From the NCBI GenBank assembly GCA_964016885.1, contig OZ024753.1, positions 15,872,001-15,936,000 on the forward strand: a stretch of DNA of 64,000 bases. Reading direction: 5' to 3'. Below, piece by piece: positions 17,260 to 60,377 of this stretch; position 1 is the stretch's first letter, and each line of letters begins with the position of its first letter. The position numbers and the translations under genes were made by a program. The stretch comes from Eledone cirrhosa (lineage: Eukaryota). Under the pieces are notes generated by a model. It saw only the letters and a program-made list of their open reading frames with translations. It was not told the origin of the DNA and searched no databases.

Positions 17260-20200
17260 ACCACCAATTGTAGTTGTTCTCTTGGGCAAGTTTCTCTATA
17301 AACTTTGATTTCAAATACATTGACACCAGTTTGTCTTTTGTACAACCCTTGGCATTTTATTGTATGCAACATCAAGTTCCTTCTCAAGTGTTGATGTCAC
17401 ATTACATATACCTGCTCCATATAACACTGACTCAAGTGCTGGTGTCACATTACATATACCTGCTCCATACAACACTAACTCAAGTGCTGGTGTCTGGTTA
17501 CATATACCTGCTCCAATATAACACTGACTCAAGTGTTGGTGTCAGGTTACATATACCTGCTCCATACAACACTGACTCAAGTGTTGGTGTCAGGTTACAT
17601 ATACCTGCTCCAATATAACACTGACTCAAGTGTTGGTGTCAGGTTACATATACCTGCTCCATACAACACTGACTCAAGTGTTGGTGTCAGGTTACATATA
17701 CCTGCTCCATACAACACTGACTCAAGTGTTGGTGTCAGGTTACATATACCTGCTCCATACAACACTGACTCAAGTGCTGGTGTCAGGTTTCATATACCTG
17801 CTCCATACAACACTGACTCAAGTGTTGGTGTCAGGTTACATATACCTACTCCATACAACACTGACTCAAGTGCTCGTGTCAGGTTACATATACCTGCTCC
17901 ATACAACACTGACTCAAGTGTTGGTGTCAGGTTACATATACCTGCTCCATACAACACTGACTCAAGTGTTGGTGTCAGGTTACATATACCTGCTCCATAC
18001 AACACTGACCCAAGTGCTGGTGTCAGGTTACATATACCTGCTCCATACAACACTGACTCAAGTGTTGGTGTCAGGTTACATATACCTGCTCCATACAACA
18101 CTGACTCAAGTGTTGGTGTCAGGTTACATATACCTGCTCCATACAACACTGACTCAAGTGTTGGTGTCAGGTTACATATACCTGCTCCATACAACACTGA
18201 CTCAAGTGTTGGTGTCAGGTTACATATACCTGCTCCATACAACACTGACTCAAGTGTTGGTGTCAGGTTACATATACCTGCTCCATACAGCACTGACTCA
18301 AGTGCTGGTGTCAGGTTACATATACCTGCTCCATACAACACTGACTCAAGTGTTGGTGTCAGGTTACATATACCTGCTCCATACAACACTGACTCAAGTG
18401 TTGGTGTCAGGTTTCATATACCTGCTCCATACAACACTGACTCAAGTGCTGGTGTCAGGTTACATATACCTACTCCATACAACACTGACTCAAGTGTTGG
18501 TGTCAGGTTACATATACCTACTCCATACAACACTGACTCAAGTGTTGGTGTCAGGTTACATATACCTGCTCCATATAACACTGACTCAAGTGTTGGTGTC
18601 AGGTTACATATACCTGCTCCATACAACACTGACCCAAGTGCTAGTGTCAGGTTACATATACCTGCTCCATACAACACTGACTCAAGTGCTAGTGTCAGGT
18701 TACATATACCTGCTCCATACAACACTGACTCAAGTGCTAGTGTCAGGTTACATATACCTGCTCCATACAACACTGACTCAAGTGCTGGTGTCAGGTTACA
18801 TATACCTGCTCCATACAACACTGACTCAAGTGCTGGTGTCAGGTTACATATACCTGCTCCATACAACACTGACTCAAGTGTTGGTGTCAGGTTACATATA
18901 CCTGCTCCATACAACACTGACTCAAGTGTTGGTGTCAGGTTACATATACCTGCTCCATACAACACTGACTCAAGTGCTGGTGTCAGGTTACATATACCTA
19001 CTCCATACAACACTGACTCAAGTGTTGGTGTCAGGTTACATATACCTGATCCATACAACACTGACTCAAGTGCTGGTGTCACATTACATATACCTGCTCC
19101 ATACAACACTGACTCAAGTGTTGGTGTCAGGTTACATATACCTGCTCCATATAACACTGACTCAAGTGTTGGTGTCAGGTTACATATACCTGCTCCATAC
19201 AACACTGACTCAAGTGCTGGTGTCAGGTTACATATACCTACTCCATACAACACTGACTCAAGTGTTGGTGTCAGGTTACATATACCTGATCCATACAACA
19301 CTGACTCAAGTGCTGGTGTCACATTACATATACCTGCTCCATACAACACTGACTCAAGTGCTGGTGTCAGGTTACATATACCTACTCCATACAACACTGA
19401 CTCAAGTGTTGGTGTCAGGTTACATATACCTGCTCCATACAACACTGACTCAACTGTTGGTGTCAGGTTACATATACCTGCTCCATACAACACTGACTCA
19501 AGTGCTAGTGTCAGGTTTCATATACCTGCTCCATACAACACTGACTCAAGTGTTGGTGTCAGGTTACATATACCTGCTCCATACAACACTGACTCAAGTG
19601 CTAGTGTCAGGTTACATATACCTGCTCCATACAACACTGACTCAAGTGTTGGTGTCAGGTTACATATACCTGCTCCATACAACACTGACTCAAGTGCTAG
19701 TGTCAGGTTTCATATACCTGCTCCATACAACACTGACTCAAGTGTTGGTGTCAGGTTACATATACCTACTCCATACAACACTGACTCAAGTGCTAGTGTC
19801 AGGTTACATATACCTACTCCATACAACACTGACTCAAGTGCTGGTGTCAGGTTTCATATACCTGCTCCATACAACACTGACTCAAGTGCTGGTGTCAGGT
19901 TACATATACCTACTCCATACAACACTGACTCAAGTGTTGGTGTCAGGTTTCATATACCTGCTCCATACAACACTGACTCAAGTGTTGGTATCAGGTTACA
20001 TATACCTACTCCATACAACACTGACTCAAGTGCTAGTGTCAGGTTACATATACCTGCTCCATACAACACTGACTCAAGTGCTGGTGTCAGGTTACATATA
20101 CCTGCTCCATACAACACTGACTCAAGTGCTGGTGTCAGGTTACATATACCTGCTCCATACAACACTGACTCAAGTGCTGGTGTCAGGTTACATATACCTG

Positions 20201-23200
20201 CTCCATACAACACTGACTCAAGTGCTGGTGTCAGGTTACATATACCTGCTCCATACAACACTGACTCAAGTGCTAGTGTCAGGTTACATATACCTGCTCC
20301 ATACAACACTGACTCAAGTGCTAGTGTCAGGTTACATATACCTGCTCCATACAACACTGACTCAAGTGCTGGTGTCAGGTTACATATACCTGCTCCATAC
20401 AACACTGACTCAAGTGTTGGTGTCAGGTTACATATACCTACTCTATACAACACTGACTCAAGTGTTGGTGTCAGGTTACATATACCTGCTCCATACAACA
20501 CTGACTCAAGTGTTGGTGTCAGGTTACATATACCTGCTCCATACAACACTGACTCAAGTGTTAGTGTCAGGTTACATATACCTACTCCATACAACACTGA
20601 CTCAAGTGTTGGTGTCAGGTTACATATACCTGCTCCATACAACACTGACTCAAGTGTTAGTGTCAGGTTACATATACCTACTCCATACAACACTGACTCA
20701 AGTGCTGGTGTCAGGTTACATATACCTGCTCCATACAACACTGACTCAAGTGTTGGTGTCAGGTTACATATACCTGCTCCATATAACACTGACTCAAGTG
20801 TTGGTGTCAGGTTACATATACCTGCTCCATATAACACTGACTCAAGTGCTGGTGTCAGGTTTCATATACCTGCTCCATACAACACTGACTCAAGTGCTGG
20901 TGTCAGGTTACATATACCTGCTCCATACAACACTGACTCAAGTGCTGGTGTCAGGTTACATATACCTACTCCATACAACACTGACTCAAGTGTTGGTGTC
21001 AGGTTACATATACCTGATCCATACAACACTGACTCAAGTGCTGGTGTCAGGTTACATATACCTGCTCCATACAACACTGACTCAAGTGTTGGTGTCAGGT
21101 TACATATACCTACTCCATACAACACTGACTCAAGTGTTGGTGTCAGGTTACATATACCTGCTCCATATAACACTGACTCAAGTGTTGGTGTCAGGTTACA
21201 TATACCTGCTCCATATAACACTGACTCAAGTGTTGGTGTCAGGTTACATATACCTGCTCCATACAACACTGACTCAAGTGCTAGTGTCAGGTTACATATA
21301 CCTGCTCCATACAACACTGACTCAAGTGCTAGTGTCAGGTTACATATACCTGCTCCATACAACACTGACTCAAGTGTTGGTGTCAGGTTACATATACCTG
21401 CTCCATATAACACTGACTCAAGTGCTGGTGTCAGGTTACATATACCTGCTCCATACAACACTGACTCAAGTGCTGGTGTCAGGTTACATATACCTACTCC
21501 ATACAACACTGACTCAAGTGTTGGTGTCAGGTTACATATACCTGATCCATACAACACTGACTCAAGTGCTGGTGTCACATTACATATACCTGCTCCATAC
21601 AACACTGACTCAAGTGCTGGTGTCAGGTTACATATACCTACTCCATACAACACTGACTCAAGTGTTGGTGTCAGGTTACATATACCTACTCCATACAACA
21701 CTGACTCAAGTGTTGGTGTCAGGTTACATATACCTGCTCCATATAACACTGACTCAAGTGTTGGTGTCAGGTTACATATACCTGCTCCATACAACACTGA
21801 CTCAAGTGTTGGTGTCAGGTTACATATACCTGCTCCATACAACACTGACTCAAGTGTTGGTGTCAGGTTACATATACCTGCTCCATATAACACTGACTCA
21901 AGTGTTGGTGTCAGGTTTCATATACCTGCTCCATACAACACTGACTCAAGTGTTGGTGTCAGGTTACATATACCTGCTCCATACAACACTGACCCAAGTG
22001 CTAGTGTCAGGTTACATATACCTACTCCATACAACACTGACTCAAGTGTTGGTGTCAGGTTACATATACCTGCTCCATATAACACTGACTCAAGTGTTGG
22101 TGTCAGGTTACATATACCTGCTCCATACAACACTGACTCAAGTGTTGGTGTCAGGTTACATATACCTGCTCCATACAACACTGACTCAAGTGTTGGTGTC
22201 AGGTTACATATACCTGCTCCATATAACACTGACTCAAGTGTTGGTGTCAGGTTTCATATACCTGCTCCATACAACACTGACTCAAGTGTTGGTGTCAGGT
22301 TACATATACCTGCTCCATACAACACTGACCCAAGTGCTAGTGTCAGGTTACATATACCTACTCCATACAACACTGACTCAAGTGTTGGTGTCAGGTTACA
22401 TATACCTGCTCCATACAACACAGACTCAAGTGCTGGTGTCAGGTTACATATACCTGCTCCATACAACACTGACCCAAGTGTTGGTGTCAGGTTACATATA
22501 CCTGCTCCATACAACACTGACTCAAGTGCTAGTGTCAGGTTACATATACCTGCTCCATACAACACTGACTCAAGTGTTGGTGTCAGGTTACATATACCTG
22601 CTCCATACAACTCTGACTCAAGTGTTGGTGTCAGGTTACATATACCTGCTCCATACAACACTGACTCAAGTGTTGGTGTCAGGTTACATATACCTGCTCC
22701 ATACAACACTGACTCAAGTGCTAGTGTCAGGTTACATATACCTGCTCCATACAACACTGACTCAAGTGTTGGTGTCAGGTTACATATACCTGCTCCATAC
22801 AACACAGGCTCAAGTGCTGGTGTCAGGTTACATATACCTGCTCCATACAACACAGACTCAAGTGCTGGTGTCAGGTTACATATACCTGCTCCATACAACA
22901 CTGACTCAAGTGCTGGTGTCAGGTTACATATACCTGCTCCATACAACACTGACTCAAGTGTTGGTGTCAGGTTACATATACCTACTCCATACAACACTGA
23001 CTCAAGTGCTAGTGTCAGGTTACATATACCTACTCCATACAACACTGACCCAAGTGTTGGTGTCAGGTTACATATACCTGCTCCATACAACACTGACTCA
23101 AGTGCTAGTGTCAGGTTACATATACCTGCTCCATACAACACTGACTCAAGTGTTGGTGTCAGGTTACATATACCTGCTCCATACAACACTGACTCAAGTG

Positions 23201-24385
23201 TTGGTGTCAGGTTACATATACCTGCTCCATACAACACTGACTCAAGTGTTAGTGTCAGGTTACATATACCTGCTCCATACAACACTGACTCAAGTGTTGG
23301 TGTCAGGTTACATATACCTGCTCCATACAACACTGACTCAAATGTTAGTGTCAGGTTACATATACCTGATCCATACAACACTGACTAGAGTGTTGGTGTC
23401 AGGTTACATATACCTGCTCCATACAACACTGACTCAAGTGCTGGTGTCAGATTACATATACCTGCTCCATACAACACTGACTCAAGTGTTGGTGTCAGGT
23501 TACATATACCTGCTCCATACAACACTGACTCAAGTGCTGGTGTCAGATTACATATACCTGCTCCATACAACACTGACTCAAGTGTTGGTGTCAGGTTACA
23601 TATACCTGCTCCATACAACACTGACTCAAATGTTAGTGTCAGGTTACATATACCTGATCCATACAACACTGACTCAAGTGCTGGTGTCAGGTTTCATATA
23701 CCTGCTCCATACAACACTGACCCAAGTGTTGGTGTCAGGTTACATATACCTACTCCATACAACACTGACTCAAGTGCTGGTGTCAGATTACATATACTTG
23801 CTCCATACAACACTGACTCAAGTGTTGGTGTCAGGTTACATATACCTGCTCCATACAACACTGACCCAAGTGCTAGTGTCAGGTTACATATACCTACTCC
23901 ATACAACACTGACTCAAGTGCTGGTGTCAGGTTACATATACCTACTCCATACAACACTGACTCAAGTGTTGGTGTCAGGTTACATATACCTGCTCCATAC
24001 AACACTGACTCAAGTGCTCATGTCAGGTTACATATACCTGCTCCATACAACACTGACTCAAATGTTAGTGTCAGGTTACATATACCTGATCCATACAACA
24101 CTGACTCAAGTGCTGGTGTCAGGTTTCATATACCTGCTCCATACAACACTGACTCAAGTGCTGGTGCCTGGTTACATATACCTGCTCCATACAACACTGA
24201 CTCAAGTGCTGGTGTCTGGTTACATATACCTGCTCCATACAACACTGACTCAAGTGCTGGTGTCACGTTACATATACCTGCTCCATACAACAACACTGAC
24301 TCAAGAGATGTTCTGAAAAATATTTTGATTTTTCTGGGTAAATCTGACCTCTGTATCCTTTCAATTTTGTTCAATGTTGTTCACA
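17260..24385 (-). mobile_element. Old LINE RT C-terminal fragment split by a minisatellite
   Basis: Right flank NKIERIQRSDLPRKIKIFFRTSLESVLLYGA; left flank NVTSTLEKELDVAYNKMPRVVQKTNWCQCI. Resembles the RTE-group ESVLLYGxExWTLT..LEK.LD..Y..M segment. Confidence 0.75.
17390..24305. repeat. 48-bp minisatellite, about 144 copies
   Basis: Unit CAAGTGTTGGTGTCAGGTTACATATACCTGCTCCATACAACACTGACT; phase is maintained throughout. Confidence 0.98.
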
Positions 24386-25535: not shown

Positions 25536-25565
<30 letters not shown>

Positions 25566-25570
<5 letters not shown>

Positions 25571-26177
25571 ACTAGAAATTGATTAACATATATAAACATG
25601 AATAATCACAGGAGATAATTTTTACAAGTGTGTAAGCACACATAGCTAGGTAGGTAACTAAATAAAGTTGACCAGAACTTCAAAAATAGATACCTTATAA
25701 TATGATTAATCTTCCCTGTATATATTCCATAAAAGAAATATATTTCACCAATTAATTTCCAGCTATCCGCGTTTACACAAGTTGTTGTGTAAACGCGGAT
25801 TGCTGGAAATTTCTTCCTTGTTGAAAGTCCAAATCTCCACTTCCGTGGTTTACCATCCGATTAATTGGTAAAATATATTTCTTTAATGGAATATATACAG
25901 GGAAGATTAATCATATTATAAGGTATCTATTTTTGAAGTTCTGGTCAACTTTATTTAGTTACCTACCTAGCTATGTGTGGTTACACACTTGTAAAAATTA
26001 TCTCCTGTGATTATTCATGTTTATATATATGTTAATCAATTTCTAGTTATTATAAAATGCTCGGACCTACTCGTTAGAATCTTAGAGCTTATTTTCCGGG
26101 TGATATGGTGCATGTCTTTCTGACATGACACCCATAATTTTGATTTAGATTAAATTCATTTAATTTATCTTAATTTT

Positions 26178-26180: not shown

Positions 26181-26217
<37 letters not shown>

Positions 26218-26221
<4 letters not shown>

Positions 26222-26685
26222 AATTAGTATATCTACCAACATATTTATACAGAAGTATACTTATGCTAGCAAGAAATAGGTTTTATCTTAGTAACTTTGT
26301 GGTTCAATACAAAAATGTAGAACAATTATATGAAAGACGTAAAATAAGAAAATTATAATAATTAACTTACTTAAGTTTCACTCCAACTAATTAGTTTCTG
26401 AAAGGGGATATACATAGTGTTCAAAACCATGGAGAATTCCTTTCTTTGTTTGAAATTTAGTCCGCGCTTGCTTCTTTTCCATTCACTGAATTATTTTTGT
26501 TTGAGCTCCGTGTGTCTGCCTATCGCCAGGGATCTTAGCCGAGAATTGACTCCCTGATGAAGAAATGAATTCTCCATGGTTTTGAACACTATGTATATCC
26601 CCTTTCAGAAACTAATTAGTCGGAATGAAACTTAAGTAAGTAAGTTAATTATTATAATTTTCTTATTTTAAGTCTTTCATATATA
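26218..26685. mobile_element. Fold-back PLE-terminus-like element in (TA)n
   Basis: Inverted arms 26327-26445 and 26562-26683; hammerhead spans spacer and right arm. Confidence 0.75.
26549..26626 (+). ncRNA. Type I hammerhead ribozyme with long helix II
   Basis: ACTCC-CTGATGA-A-GAAA...TTTC-A-GAAA-CTAATTAG-TC-GGAAT; the left-arm copy gives GGAGT, which restores stem I. Confidence 0.7.
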
Positions 26686-26698
26686 AATATATATATAT

Positions 26699-27032
26699 CA
26701 TGGCTTAGTGGTTAGAGCATTGGCCTTGCAATCGAGAGGTTGTGGATTCAATTCTCGGACCGGGTGATGTGTTGTTTCCTTGAGCAAGACACTTTATTTC
26801 ACATTGCCCCAGTTTACTCAGCTGTAGAAATGAGATGATAGGGACTGGGTTCCCTATCATTCCACTGCAAAGTGGTCATTGAGGTGCCATGGCAAAAAAG
26901 CACCCAGCACTCACTGTAAATGAGGTTGGTGTTAGGAAGGGCACCCAGCTGTAGAAATCAAGCCAGAATCATTTCCCGTCCCACCCTTGCAAGCAGGGAA
27001 AAGCGGACGTAAAATGACGATGAGATGATGAT
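26699..27032 (+). mobile_element. CORE-type tRNA SINE with RTE-A tail
   Basis: Same family as 7302-7612. Confidence 0.88.
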
Positions 27033-50204: not shown

Positions 50205-50713
<509 letters not shown>

Positions 50714-59918: not shown

Positions 59919-60344
59919 CATCATCACCATTTTACATCCGTTCTTCCATGCTAGCATCGGTTAGACGGGTTGTCCTGTTGTGGGCAGTGTCTGGTTGGCT
60001 GACCTTGTCTTGCTCATACGGGAACTGATTCTGGCTTAATTTCTACAGCTGGATGCCCTTCCTAACACCAACTTCATTTACAGTGAGTGCTGGGTGCTTT
60101 TTTTCAGTGGCGCCTACACGTCCACTTTACAGTGTGGGCTGCATGCTATTTTGCCGTGGTACCTCCACGACCATTTTGCAGTGGAATGATAAGGACCCCA
60201 GTCCCATCATCTCATTTCTACAGCTGAGTAAACTGGAGTAATGTGAAATAAAGTGTCTTGCTCAAGGAAACAACACATCACCCGGTCCGAGAATTGAACT
60301 GACAACCTTTCGATTGCAAGCCCAATGCTCTAGCCACTAAGCCA
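59919..60344 (-). mobile_element. CORE-type tRNA SINE with RTE-B tail
   Basis: Head and body as 50379-50713, but continues ATGAGCAAGACAAGG...GCTAGCATGGAAGAACGG. Confidence 0.88.

Positions 60345-60377
<33 letters not shown>

What the first reader, a model, noticed from the sequence alone, without database searches (positions are those of the whole stretch)
26549..26626. Second long-helix-II hammerhead with the same A.A juxtaposition
Seen: CTGATGA-A-[GAAA(T/G)G...CATGGT/ACTATG...CCTTTC]-A-GAAA-CTAATTAG-TC; helix II region is 47 nt. The sequence is unrelated to 2966-3082 but the design is the same: A opposite A where R10.1-Y11.1 normally pairs, palindromic helix III, GUC. The other arm restores the GGAGT and GAAAGG pairings. 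Inference: two independent examples suggest a distinct hammerhead subtype.
Basis: partly seen in the sequence, partly recalled or inferred. Interest (0 to 1): 0.75.

Follow-up and report, generated by a model that had tools for sequence, protein, structure and literature searches.

The report
Pseudoknotted hammerhead of a Penelope parasite
This is a damaged copy of a hammerhead motif, a predicted self-cutting RNA, carried by a short non-coding repeat with about 10,000 copies in this animal genome; the A·A mismatch is a minor version of a known variable position, and the less usual part is a long, covarying helix II with a likely pseudoknot clamp.

Summary
The motif is real. It is a type I hammerhead in a 508-571-bp non-coding repeat with Penelope-like tandem and inverted copies (10,867 pattern matches, control 0). 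It is not an 'A·A subtype'. Only 311 matches (2.9%) have A after CUGAUGA; C·A is the family norm and A·A is one derived clade. The A before GAAA is near-fixed (99.5%), and G-C follows the mismatch in 61 of 62 aligned copies. GUC is private to this copy; the family has GUU. A·A recurs in the Hydra-clade element at 2931-6478 and in a third family with a short helix II, so A·A and the long helix are unlinked. Mismatches at this position are published (U·U, U·C, C·A, probably A·A). The unusual part is an extended helix II with strong covariation and a conserved upstream GAGAA/UUCUC pairing that changes to GAAAA/UUUUC. It is probably a pseudoknot, possibly an off-switch. Copy 5' ends pile up modestly at the predicted cut. 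Cleavage and expression are untested. The scan apparently met this family before on other DNA (e1-8664355). Verdict: new variant of a known kind, interest 0.4.

The parts
26451..26683 (+). 5'-truncated copy of the ~520-bp non-coding hammerhead repeat (A·A subfamily), ending at CTTTC followed by (AT)n
26217..26446 (-). Inverted arm of the same element. It starts at A9, so it has no CUGAUG; it has GUU, GGAGT and GAAAGG and runs about 110 bp into the next unit. Flanked by (TA)n. This is a Penelope-type inverted structure.
26541..26547 (+). GAGAA(UU), upstream strand of the proposed pseudoknot or alternative stem
26549..26553 (+). Helix I 5' strand ACUCC
26554..26560 (+). Catalytic core C3-A9, CUGAUGA
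26561..26561 (+). Variable nucleotide after A9: A here, C in most of the family
26562..26567 (+). Helix IIa 5' strand; subfamily GAAAGG, private G>T at 26566
26568..26574 (+). (AA)UUCUC, 5' side of the helix II internal loop, partner of GAGAA
26575..26593 (+). Distal hairpin IIb (CAUGGU/ACUAUG); covaries across subfamilies
26601..26606 (+). Helix IIa 3' strand CCUUUC
26607..26607 (+). Near-invariant extra A 5' of G12
   Evidence: non-A in 50 of 10,867 matches
26608..26621 (+). G12-A14, palindromic helix III ACUAAUUAGU and N17 (C here, U in the family); predicted cut between 26621 and 26622
26622..26626 (+). Helix I 3' strand; subfamily GGAGU, private G>A at 26625 leaves 3 bp
2966..3082 (-). 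Comparison motif: A·A hammerhead with a longer helix II in the 3' end of an autonomous Penelope-like element; unrelated in sequence
2931..6478 (-). Young Hydra-clade Penelope-like element: ORF 4026-5963 here, intact 785-aa frame in many copies; RWK, DKT, CxCX5C motifs

Best explanation
The motif is the type I hammerhead of a ~520-bp non-coding repeat with tandem, partial-tandem and inverted copies in (TA)n, which is likely mobilised by a Penelope-like element and likely cuts its multimeric transcript into monomers, probably as a dimer through the palindromic helix III. The base of helix II is a non-Watson-Crick N·A step (C·A in most copies, A·A in one derived clade) stacked on a retained G-C pair. 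Helix II is a 6-bp stem, an internal loop and a distal hairpin. The UUCUC side of that loop probably pairs with GAGAA upstream of helix I, giving a pseudoknot that would hold helices I and II together. The window copy has three private changes and is probably crippled. Shown: anatomy, copy number, covariation, element structure. Inferred: cleavage, dimer use, pseudoknot geometry, circular intermediate, partner element.
For: Copy number and control. Tandem array of period 520-522 and units of 508-571 bp. No open frame over 69 codons in a two-unit stretch, and no tblastn match to the neighbouring Penelope protein. Helix IIa has four standard pair types at one position, helix IIb has double changes at 4 of 4 pairs, and 96.4% of cells pair against 32-53% in slid controls. 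RNAalifold finds the same helices unaided. For the pseudoknot pair, the first 100 of 1,298 matches show G-C 63, A-U 32, G·U 2, A·C 2, U·U 1 (hand count), and the upstream letter was predicted correctly before fetching. The helix III palindrome has no monomer fold and a -9.0 kcal/mol duplex. 5' ends of copies: 18 of 104 lie at -5 to +17 from the predicted cut, 14 after dropping 4 artefactual rows, p = 0.0015 against the flanks. Literature: Penelope hammerheads have an extra nucleotide after A9, G10.1-C11.1 and a palindromic helix III, and act weakly as dimers. Retrozymes give circular RNAs and derive from Penelope termini.
Against: No cleavage or expression data. Seventeen 5' ends lie in the 69 nt upstream of the cut, so many templates were not cut there. 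The pile-up window was chosen after seeing the data and overlaps a small palindrome that could favour inversions. The pseudoknot covariation is one position and one or two evolutionary events; its covariation score (0.148) is close to one slid control (0.143). A control search on the other side of the loop also finds runs of 5 or more pairs in 38 of 62 copies. A nested fold using the same GAGAA/UUCUC helix is as stable as or more stable than the monomer hammerhead fold in 40 of 62 copies; that comparison leaves out pseudoknot and dimer energy. No autonomous partner with sequence homology was found.
Confidence: 0.68

Rival explanations
1. The GAGAA/UUCUC helix is an off-switch rather than a pseudoknot: it closes an alternative hairpin over CUGAUGA and keeps the ribozyme inactive until dimerisation or a protein refolds it.
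For: The free minimum-energy folds of the window copy and of L141 use this helix and break helix IIa. The nested fold is at least as stable as the monomer hammerhead fold in 40 of 62 copies. Covariation of the pair fits this reading equally.
Against: UUCUC is left unpaired in the hammerhead fold in 45 of 62 copies. Stem lengths (5-6 bp helix I, 6-bp helix IIa) match published pseudoknotted hammerheads. The inner pairings of the nested fold differ between subfamilies.
Confidence: 0.25
2. One reading: A·A plus a long helix II defines a distinct hammerhead subtype that replaces R10.1-Y11.1.
For: A·A is fixed in the young active element (48 of 48), in a third family (27 of the first 100 rows, all with A where C was allowed) and in a clade of about 300 matches here. 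The A before G12 is shared by all three.
Against: C·A is the norm of this family and A·A is derived once. The third A·A family has a short helix II. An R-Y pair is retained next to the mismatch. U·U, U·C and C·A are published at this position, and probably A·A.
Confidence: 0.1
3. The motif is a vestigial or non-catalytic structure (a protein-binding or priming signal) that the element keeps for transposition, with little or no self-cleavage.
For: Published Penelope hammerheads cleave poorly in vitro. U·U was reported as the best-tolerated mismatch at this position, so C·A and A·A may be slow. Many copies read through the cut site.
Against: Helices covary across subfamilies whose flanks are about 67-95% identical (5th to 95th percentile), and about 10,000 matches carry the exact core. 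The core letters were fixed by my search pattern, so their invariance in the alignment is by construction. 5' ends are enriched at the predicted cut.
Confidence: 0.15

Closest known systems
Hydra-clade and related Penelope-like element hammerheads (Craig et al. 2021, PMC8557442; passages, section 11, supplement part 2 of 59 with File S2, and a motif search of the supplement)
   Same: Type I, palindromic helix III, N17 often U, (TA)n insertion, non-Watson-Crick step at the base of helix II: U·U in 14 and U·C in 1 of 26 Hydra rows (hand count). PLE-X1_cBra has C·A followed by G-C and a 6-bp stem, the majority state of this family.
   Different: All listed Hydra motifs have a short helix II (3-7 bp, loop up to 10 nt). 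No A·A among the 26 rows and no pseudoknot annotated. This family's helix III motif is absent from the supplement.
[quoted passage not shown]
   Same: Extra nucleotide between 9 and 10.1, G10.1-C11.1, longer helix II, palindromic helix III, short helix I, copies on opposite strands. One of 56 rows of Fig. S3 has AGAAA; by row order it is the Cotesia row, which would be A·A.
   Different: The extra A before G12 is rare there (1 of 56, row assignment inferred from text order and not seen in the figure). No internal loop with distal hairpin. A later review describes these motifs as usually lacking tertiary contacts (PMC6155905, passages).
Metazoan non-LTR retrozymes (Cervera and de la Pena 2020, PMC7229834, passages and section 15; bioRxiv 10.64898/2026.07.22.740005, passages and section 14)
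   Same: Non-coding, low-GC tandem units with one type I hammerhead each. The axolotl Amex2 motif has U·U at the base of helix II and cleaves better as a dimer. Related to Penelope termini.
   Different: The unit is longer (508-571 bp against 150-450 bp). Most copies are dispersed partial tandems or inversions. The unit fold is only 1.7 SD below shuffles. RNA circles are not shown here.
Pseudoknotted hammerheads (Perreault et al. 2011, PMC3088659, passages and section 7; de la Pena et al. 2021, PMC7936874, passages)
   Same: Watson-Crick contact between the helix I and helix II regions. The toad and termite type III motifs use an internal loop capped by an extra hairpin, with 5-bp and 6-bp stems.
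   Different: There the looped extension is on helix I. Here it is on helix II of a type I motif, and its partner is the 5' flank. The pseudoknot here is inferred from one covarying position.

Membership tests
Type I hammerhead ribozyme | Core CUGANGA, GAAA and NUH in type I order | tested here: met
Type I hammerhead ribozyme | Three helices supported by pairing across copies | tested here: met
   Helix IIa covaries, helix III is invariant (fixed by the search pattern), helix I varies between 5 and 6 bp with matched indels. The window copy keeps only 3 bp of helix I.
Type I hammerhead ribozyme | Watson-Crick pair directly next to A9 and G12 | tested here: not met
   C·A or A·A intervenes. Published natural members also depart here, so this marks a variant and does not exclude it.
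Type I hammerhead ribozyme | Self-cleavage at N17 | not testable with these tools
   Indirect only: pile-up of 5' ends
Rfam hammerhead families | Match to a curated covariance model | tested here: not met
   No hammerhead family at E <= 10 on 26300-26700
Penelope-like element hammerheads | Extra nucleotide after A9, G10.1-C11.1, palindromic helix III | tested here: met
Non-LTR retrozyme / non-autonomous Penelope-like element | Non-coding tandem units with one hammerhead each | tested here: met
Non-LTR retrozyme / non-autonomous Penelope-like element | Penelope-type insertion structure (partial tandems, inverted 5'-truncated arms, (TA)n target) | tested here: met
Non-LTR retrozyme / non-autonomous Penelope-like element | Expressed as linear and circular monomer RNA | not testable with these tools
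   No RNA holder listed, contigs only
Non-LTR retrozyme / non-autonomous Penelope-like element | Homology to the terminus of an autonomous element | tested here: inconclusive
   No match to the one autonomous family tested; other families were not surveyed
Pseudoknotted hammerheads | Four or more Watson-Crick pairs linking the helix I and helix II regions, with covariation | tested here: inconclusive
   Five or more pairs possible in 55 of 62 copies and one covarying position; the nested alternative is not excluded
Hydra-clade Penelope-like element (for 2931-6478 only) | RWK, DKT, CxCX5C linker, C-terminal GIY-YIG-type endonuclease, (TA)n insertion | tested here: met
   Motifs read by eye in the 785-aa frame against the description. 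No tree was built, and Pfam gave no hit.

The most novel reading that the evidence does not exclude
A pseudoknot-clamped type I hammerhead variant of Penelope-derived elements. An invariant extra A before G12 forms a C·A or A·A step at the base of helix II, and an internally looped, hairpin-capped helix II pairs with the 5' flank of helix I to restore the tertiary contact that Penelope hammerheads were reported to lack. This would be a mirror image of the pseudoknotted type III motifs, present in about 10,000 copies that descriptors demanding a pair next to the core reject.
Probability: 0.45. Interest if true: 0.6.

Novelty: new variant of a known kind. Interest (0 to 1): 0.4.

Why it matters
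Standard descriptors reject mispairs next to the core and Rfam misses this motif, so large hammerhead families with an extra A before the catalytic G12 go uncounted: one descriptor gives 14,226 matches against 64 in the control. The family is a ready natural mutant series (C·A against A·A, five helix IIa sequences, two or three pseudoknot sequences). It can test how much the hammerhead core tolerates at this position and whether Penelope-type hammerheads, reported as slow and without tertiary contacts, can use a pseudoknot. It does not change the known biology of Penelope elements or retrozymes.

Tried and rejected
Rfam: no hammerhead hit on the region. In the whole window the best 150 of 188 rows were microsatellite-driven noise. 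Expression: no RNA holder listed; the two layings were contigs only and say nothing for or against transcription. A shared subtype with 2966-3082: the family model R1 hits only the two arms at 26376-26630 and one weak repeat-rich stretch, not that motif. No convincing equivalent of the GAGAA/UUCUC pairing in that motif, and its copies are too identical for covariation. Partner search: no homology between units and the neighbouring element; RT fragments near some copies look like co-insertion in (TA)n. A candidate family seen (CTGATGAACTAC...) has no helix I or II and was rejected. One search was mis-registered by one base, and included references with inverted pieces; both were superseded. One search did not retrieve relatives of the 2966-3082 motif in number. 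Papers not held: Lunse et al. 2017 on Penelope hammerhead variants, Hammann et al. 2012, Arkhipova et al. 2017. Any of these, and the closed bioRxiv supplements, could already show this architecture. Literature searches that found no description of a pseudoknotted, long-helix-II Penelope hammerhead.

Full report
Observation. The motif reads as a type I hammerhead: helix I 26549-26553 with 26622-26626, CUGAUGA 26554-26560, a 47-nt helix II region 26561-26607, GAA 26608-26610, palindromic helix III 26611-26620 and C17 at 26621. An inverted arm at 26217-26446 repeats the 3' part with GAAAGG and GGAGT, but has GUU and starts at A9. Rfam has no hammerhead hit on the region.

The element. The 40 best-scored genomic matches are 93-100% identical to the window stretch. 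They belong to a non-coding unit of 508-571 bp that occurs as partial tandems, inverted 5'-truncated arms and arrays. One array has 13 exact helix III motifs at periods of 520-522 bp or twice that. Many copies are flanked by (TA)n. A two-unit stretch has no frame longer than 69 codons. This is the insertion anatomy described for Penelope-like elements and the unit organisation of non-LTR retrozymes. The pattern CTGANGA-N30-70-GAAACTAATTAGT has 10,867 matches and its reversed control 0; these are pattern matches, not curated copies. The genome is 3.0 Gb, AT-rich and full of TA repeats. That it is a cephalopod is my guess from recalled repeat landscapes and was not tested.

The A·A claim. With A fixed after CTGANGA the count falls to 311 (2.9%). 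Among the first 100 listed matches, 99 have C and 1 has T (hand count). With a non-A fixed before GAAA the count is 50 (0.5%). A tree built from flanks without the hammerhead, for 54 of 88 copies with enough flank, puts all A copies in one clade nested among C copies (midpoint root). The first pair inside the mismatch is G-C in 61 of 62 aligned copies. So the family motif is C·A over G-C, and A·A is a derived state. N17 is U in 122, A in 2 and C in 1 of 125 copies held, the one C being the window copy. The window copy also has G>T in helix IIa and G>A in helix I; its constrained hammerhead fold is -4.1 kcal/mol against -14.9 for a sister copy. It is probably crippled.

Does A·A recur? Yes. The 2966-3082 motif ends a very young autonomous element: the 40 best DNA matches are 100% identical, many copies have an open 785-codon frame, and the protein has the RWK, DKT and CxCX5C motifs of the Hydra clade. 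All 48 full motifs held have A·A and GUC. A third family, found with a descriptor allowing A or C before and requiring A after helix II (14,226 matches, control 64), has A·A with a 4-bp helix II, a 3-nt loop and an internally looped helix I. It made up 27 of the first 100 rows, and all 17 fetched copies show it. Single flanking motifs show A·A, G-C, U·U and U-A at the same position. A·A and the long helix II are therefore independent features, and the family model does not recognise the 2966-3082 motif.

Precedent. Cervera and de la Pena 2014 give an extra nucleotide after A9, a conserved G10.1-C11.1 pair, a longer helix II and a palindromic helix III as the Penelope consensus, with weak dimer-dependent cleavage. 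One of 56 rows of their Fig. S3 carries AGAAA; by text order it is the Cotesia row, which would be A·A (inferred). Craig et al. 2021 File S2 lists U·U in 14 and U·C in 1 of 26 Hydra rows and C·A in PLE-X1_cBra (hand count). Perreault et al. 2011 report a natural U10.1·U11.1, note that U·U is the best-tolerated mispair, and rejected other mispairs next to the core. The axolotl Amex2 retrozyme has U·U and cleaves. Whether one numbers the step as 10.1·11.1 or as two inserted bases is a convention; both are in print.

What is less ordinary. Helix II is a 6-bp stem, an internal loop and a distal hairpin. On 62 copies chosen to span subfamilies, one helix IIa position shows A-U 23, G-C 20, U-A 13 and C-G 5, and all four counted helix IIb pairs show double changes. 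Overall 96.4% of cells pair, against 32-53% in slid controls. RNAalifold returns the same two helices. Cells count sequences, not events. The 5' side of the internal loop, UUCUC, is complementary to GAGAA upstream of helix I. I predicted that copies with UUUUC would have GAAAA or GGAAA upstream, and this held in the fetched copies apart from one G·U case. In the first 100 of 1,298 matches of one clade, the middle pair is G-C 63, A-U 32, G·U 2, A·C 2 and U·U 1 (hand count). This rests on one position and one or two events. The helix's covariation score barely exceeds one slid control, five-pair runs are also found on the control side in 38 of 62 copies, and a nested fold using the same helix is as stable as or more stable than the monomer hammerhead fold in 40 of 62. 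A pseudoknot is my preferred reading because the partner strand is free in the hammerhead fold in 45 of 62 copies and the stem lengths match published pseudoknotted hammerheads. An off-switch is not excluded.

Mechanism. Inferred: tandem copies are transcribed, two motifs pair through the 10-nt palindrome (no monomer fold, duplex -9.0 kcal/mol), each cuts after GUU, and monomers or circles are copied by a Penelope-type RT/endonuclease into (TA)n. Indirect support: of 104 mapped 5' ends, 18 lie at -5 to +17 from the predicted cut, against 17 in the 69 nt upstream and 11 in the 69 nt downstream. Dropping 4 rows that are inverted self-matches leaves 14, p = 0.0015. The window was chosen after inspection, the loci were selected for holding a hammerhead, and many copies read through the site, so this is modest evidence. 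It prompted this test and is not independent support. The partner element is unknown; the Hydra clade is the best guess from hammerhead style and target, but no homology to the one family tested was found. No RNA holder was listed.

Verdict. This is a Penelope/retrozyme-type hammerhead variant whose stable marks are an extra A before G12, an elaborated helix II and a probable pseudoknot. I found no description of that combination in the searches, but three relevant papers were not available. Novelty: new variant of a known kind. Interest 0.4, or 0.6 if the pseudoknot and activity are shown.

Noticed in passing
window 2931-6478 (-): Very young Hydra-clade Penelope-like element; over 100 near-identical copies, many with an open 785-codon frame. 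The window copy's open frame is shorter (670 codons). The non-coding 3' part is about 1.1 kb.
   Followed up: partly
L201-L217 (e.g. L202:1478-1560): A ~290-bp repeat family with an A·A hammerhead, 4-bp helix II, internally looped helix I and GUC; probably thousands of copies.
   Followed up: partly
L181-L200: Further abundant families with CTGANGA, a 45-60-nt insert and GAAACA(C/T)(A/G)TGT (3,639 matches, control 25); helix II anatomy not worked out.
   Followed up: no
L049:-77, L105:+321, L116:+808, L024:-2611, L139:-480, L140:+2634 (positions on the strand given): Other hammerheads in flanks, with A·A, G-C, U·U or U-A at the base of helix II. L049 and L105 share helix III but differ as A·A against G-C.
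   Followed up: no
window 25564-26054: A ~490-bp near-perfect palindromic element in (TA)n directly beside the finding (arms 98-100% complementary); MITE-like or fold-back.
   Followed up: no
window 26699-27020: A tRNA-like-headed SINE-type repeat, with relatives at 7309-7596, 50356-50687 and 60018-60345.
   Followed up: no
window 17500-24300: 48-bp minisatellite of about 139 units with long open frames.
   Followed up: no
L106:1904-4700: A second Hydra-like family (57% identical over 227 aa) whose 3' region has 113-119-bp repeats holding CTGATGA but no foldable hammerhead.
   Followed up: partly
L091 unit, about 170-190 nt upstream of the core: A conserved TGTCACGTGAT...TTTGAAT block across subfamilies; possibly an internal promoter element.
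   Followed up: no
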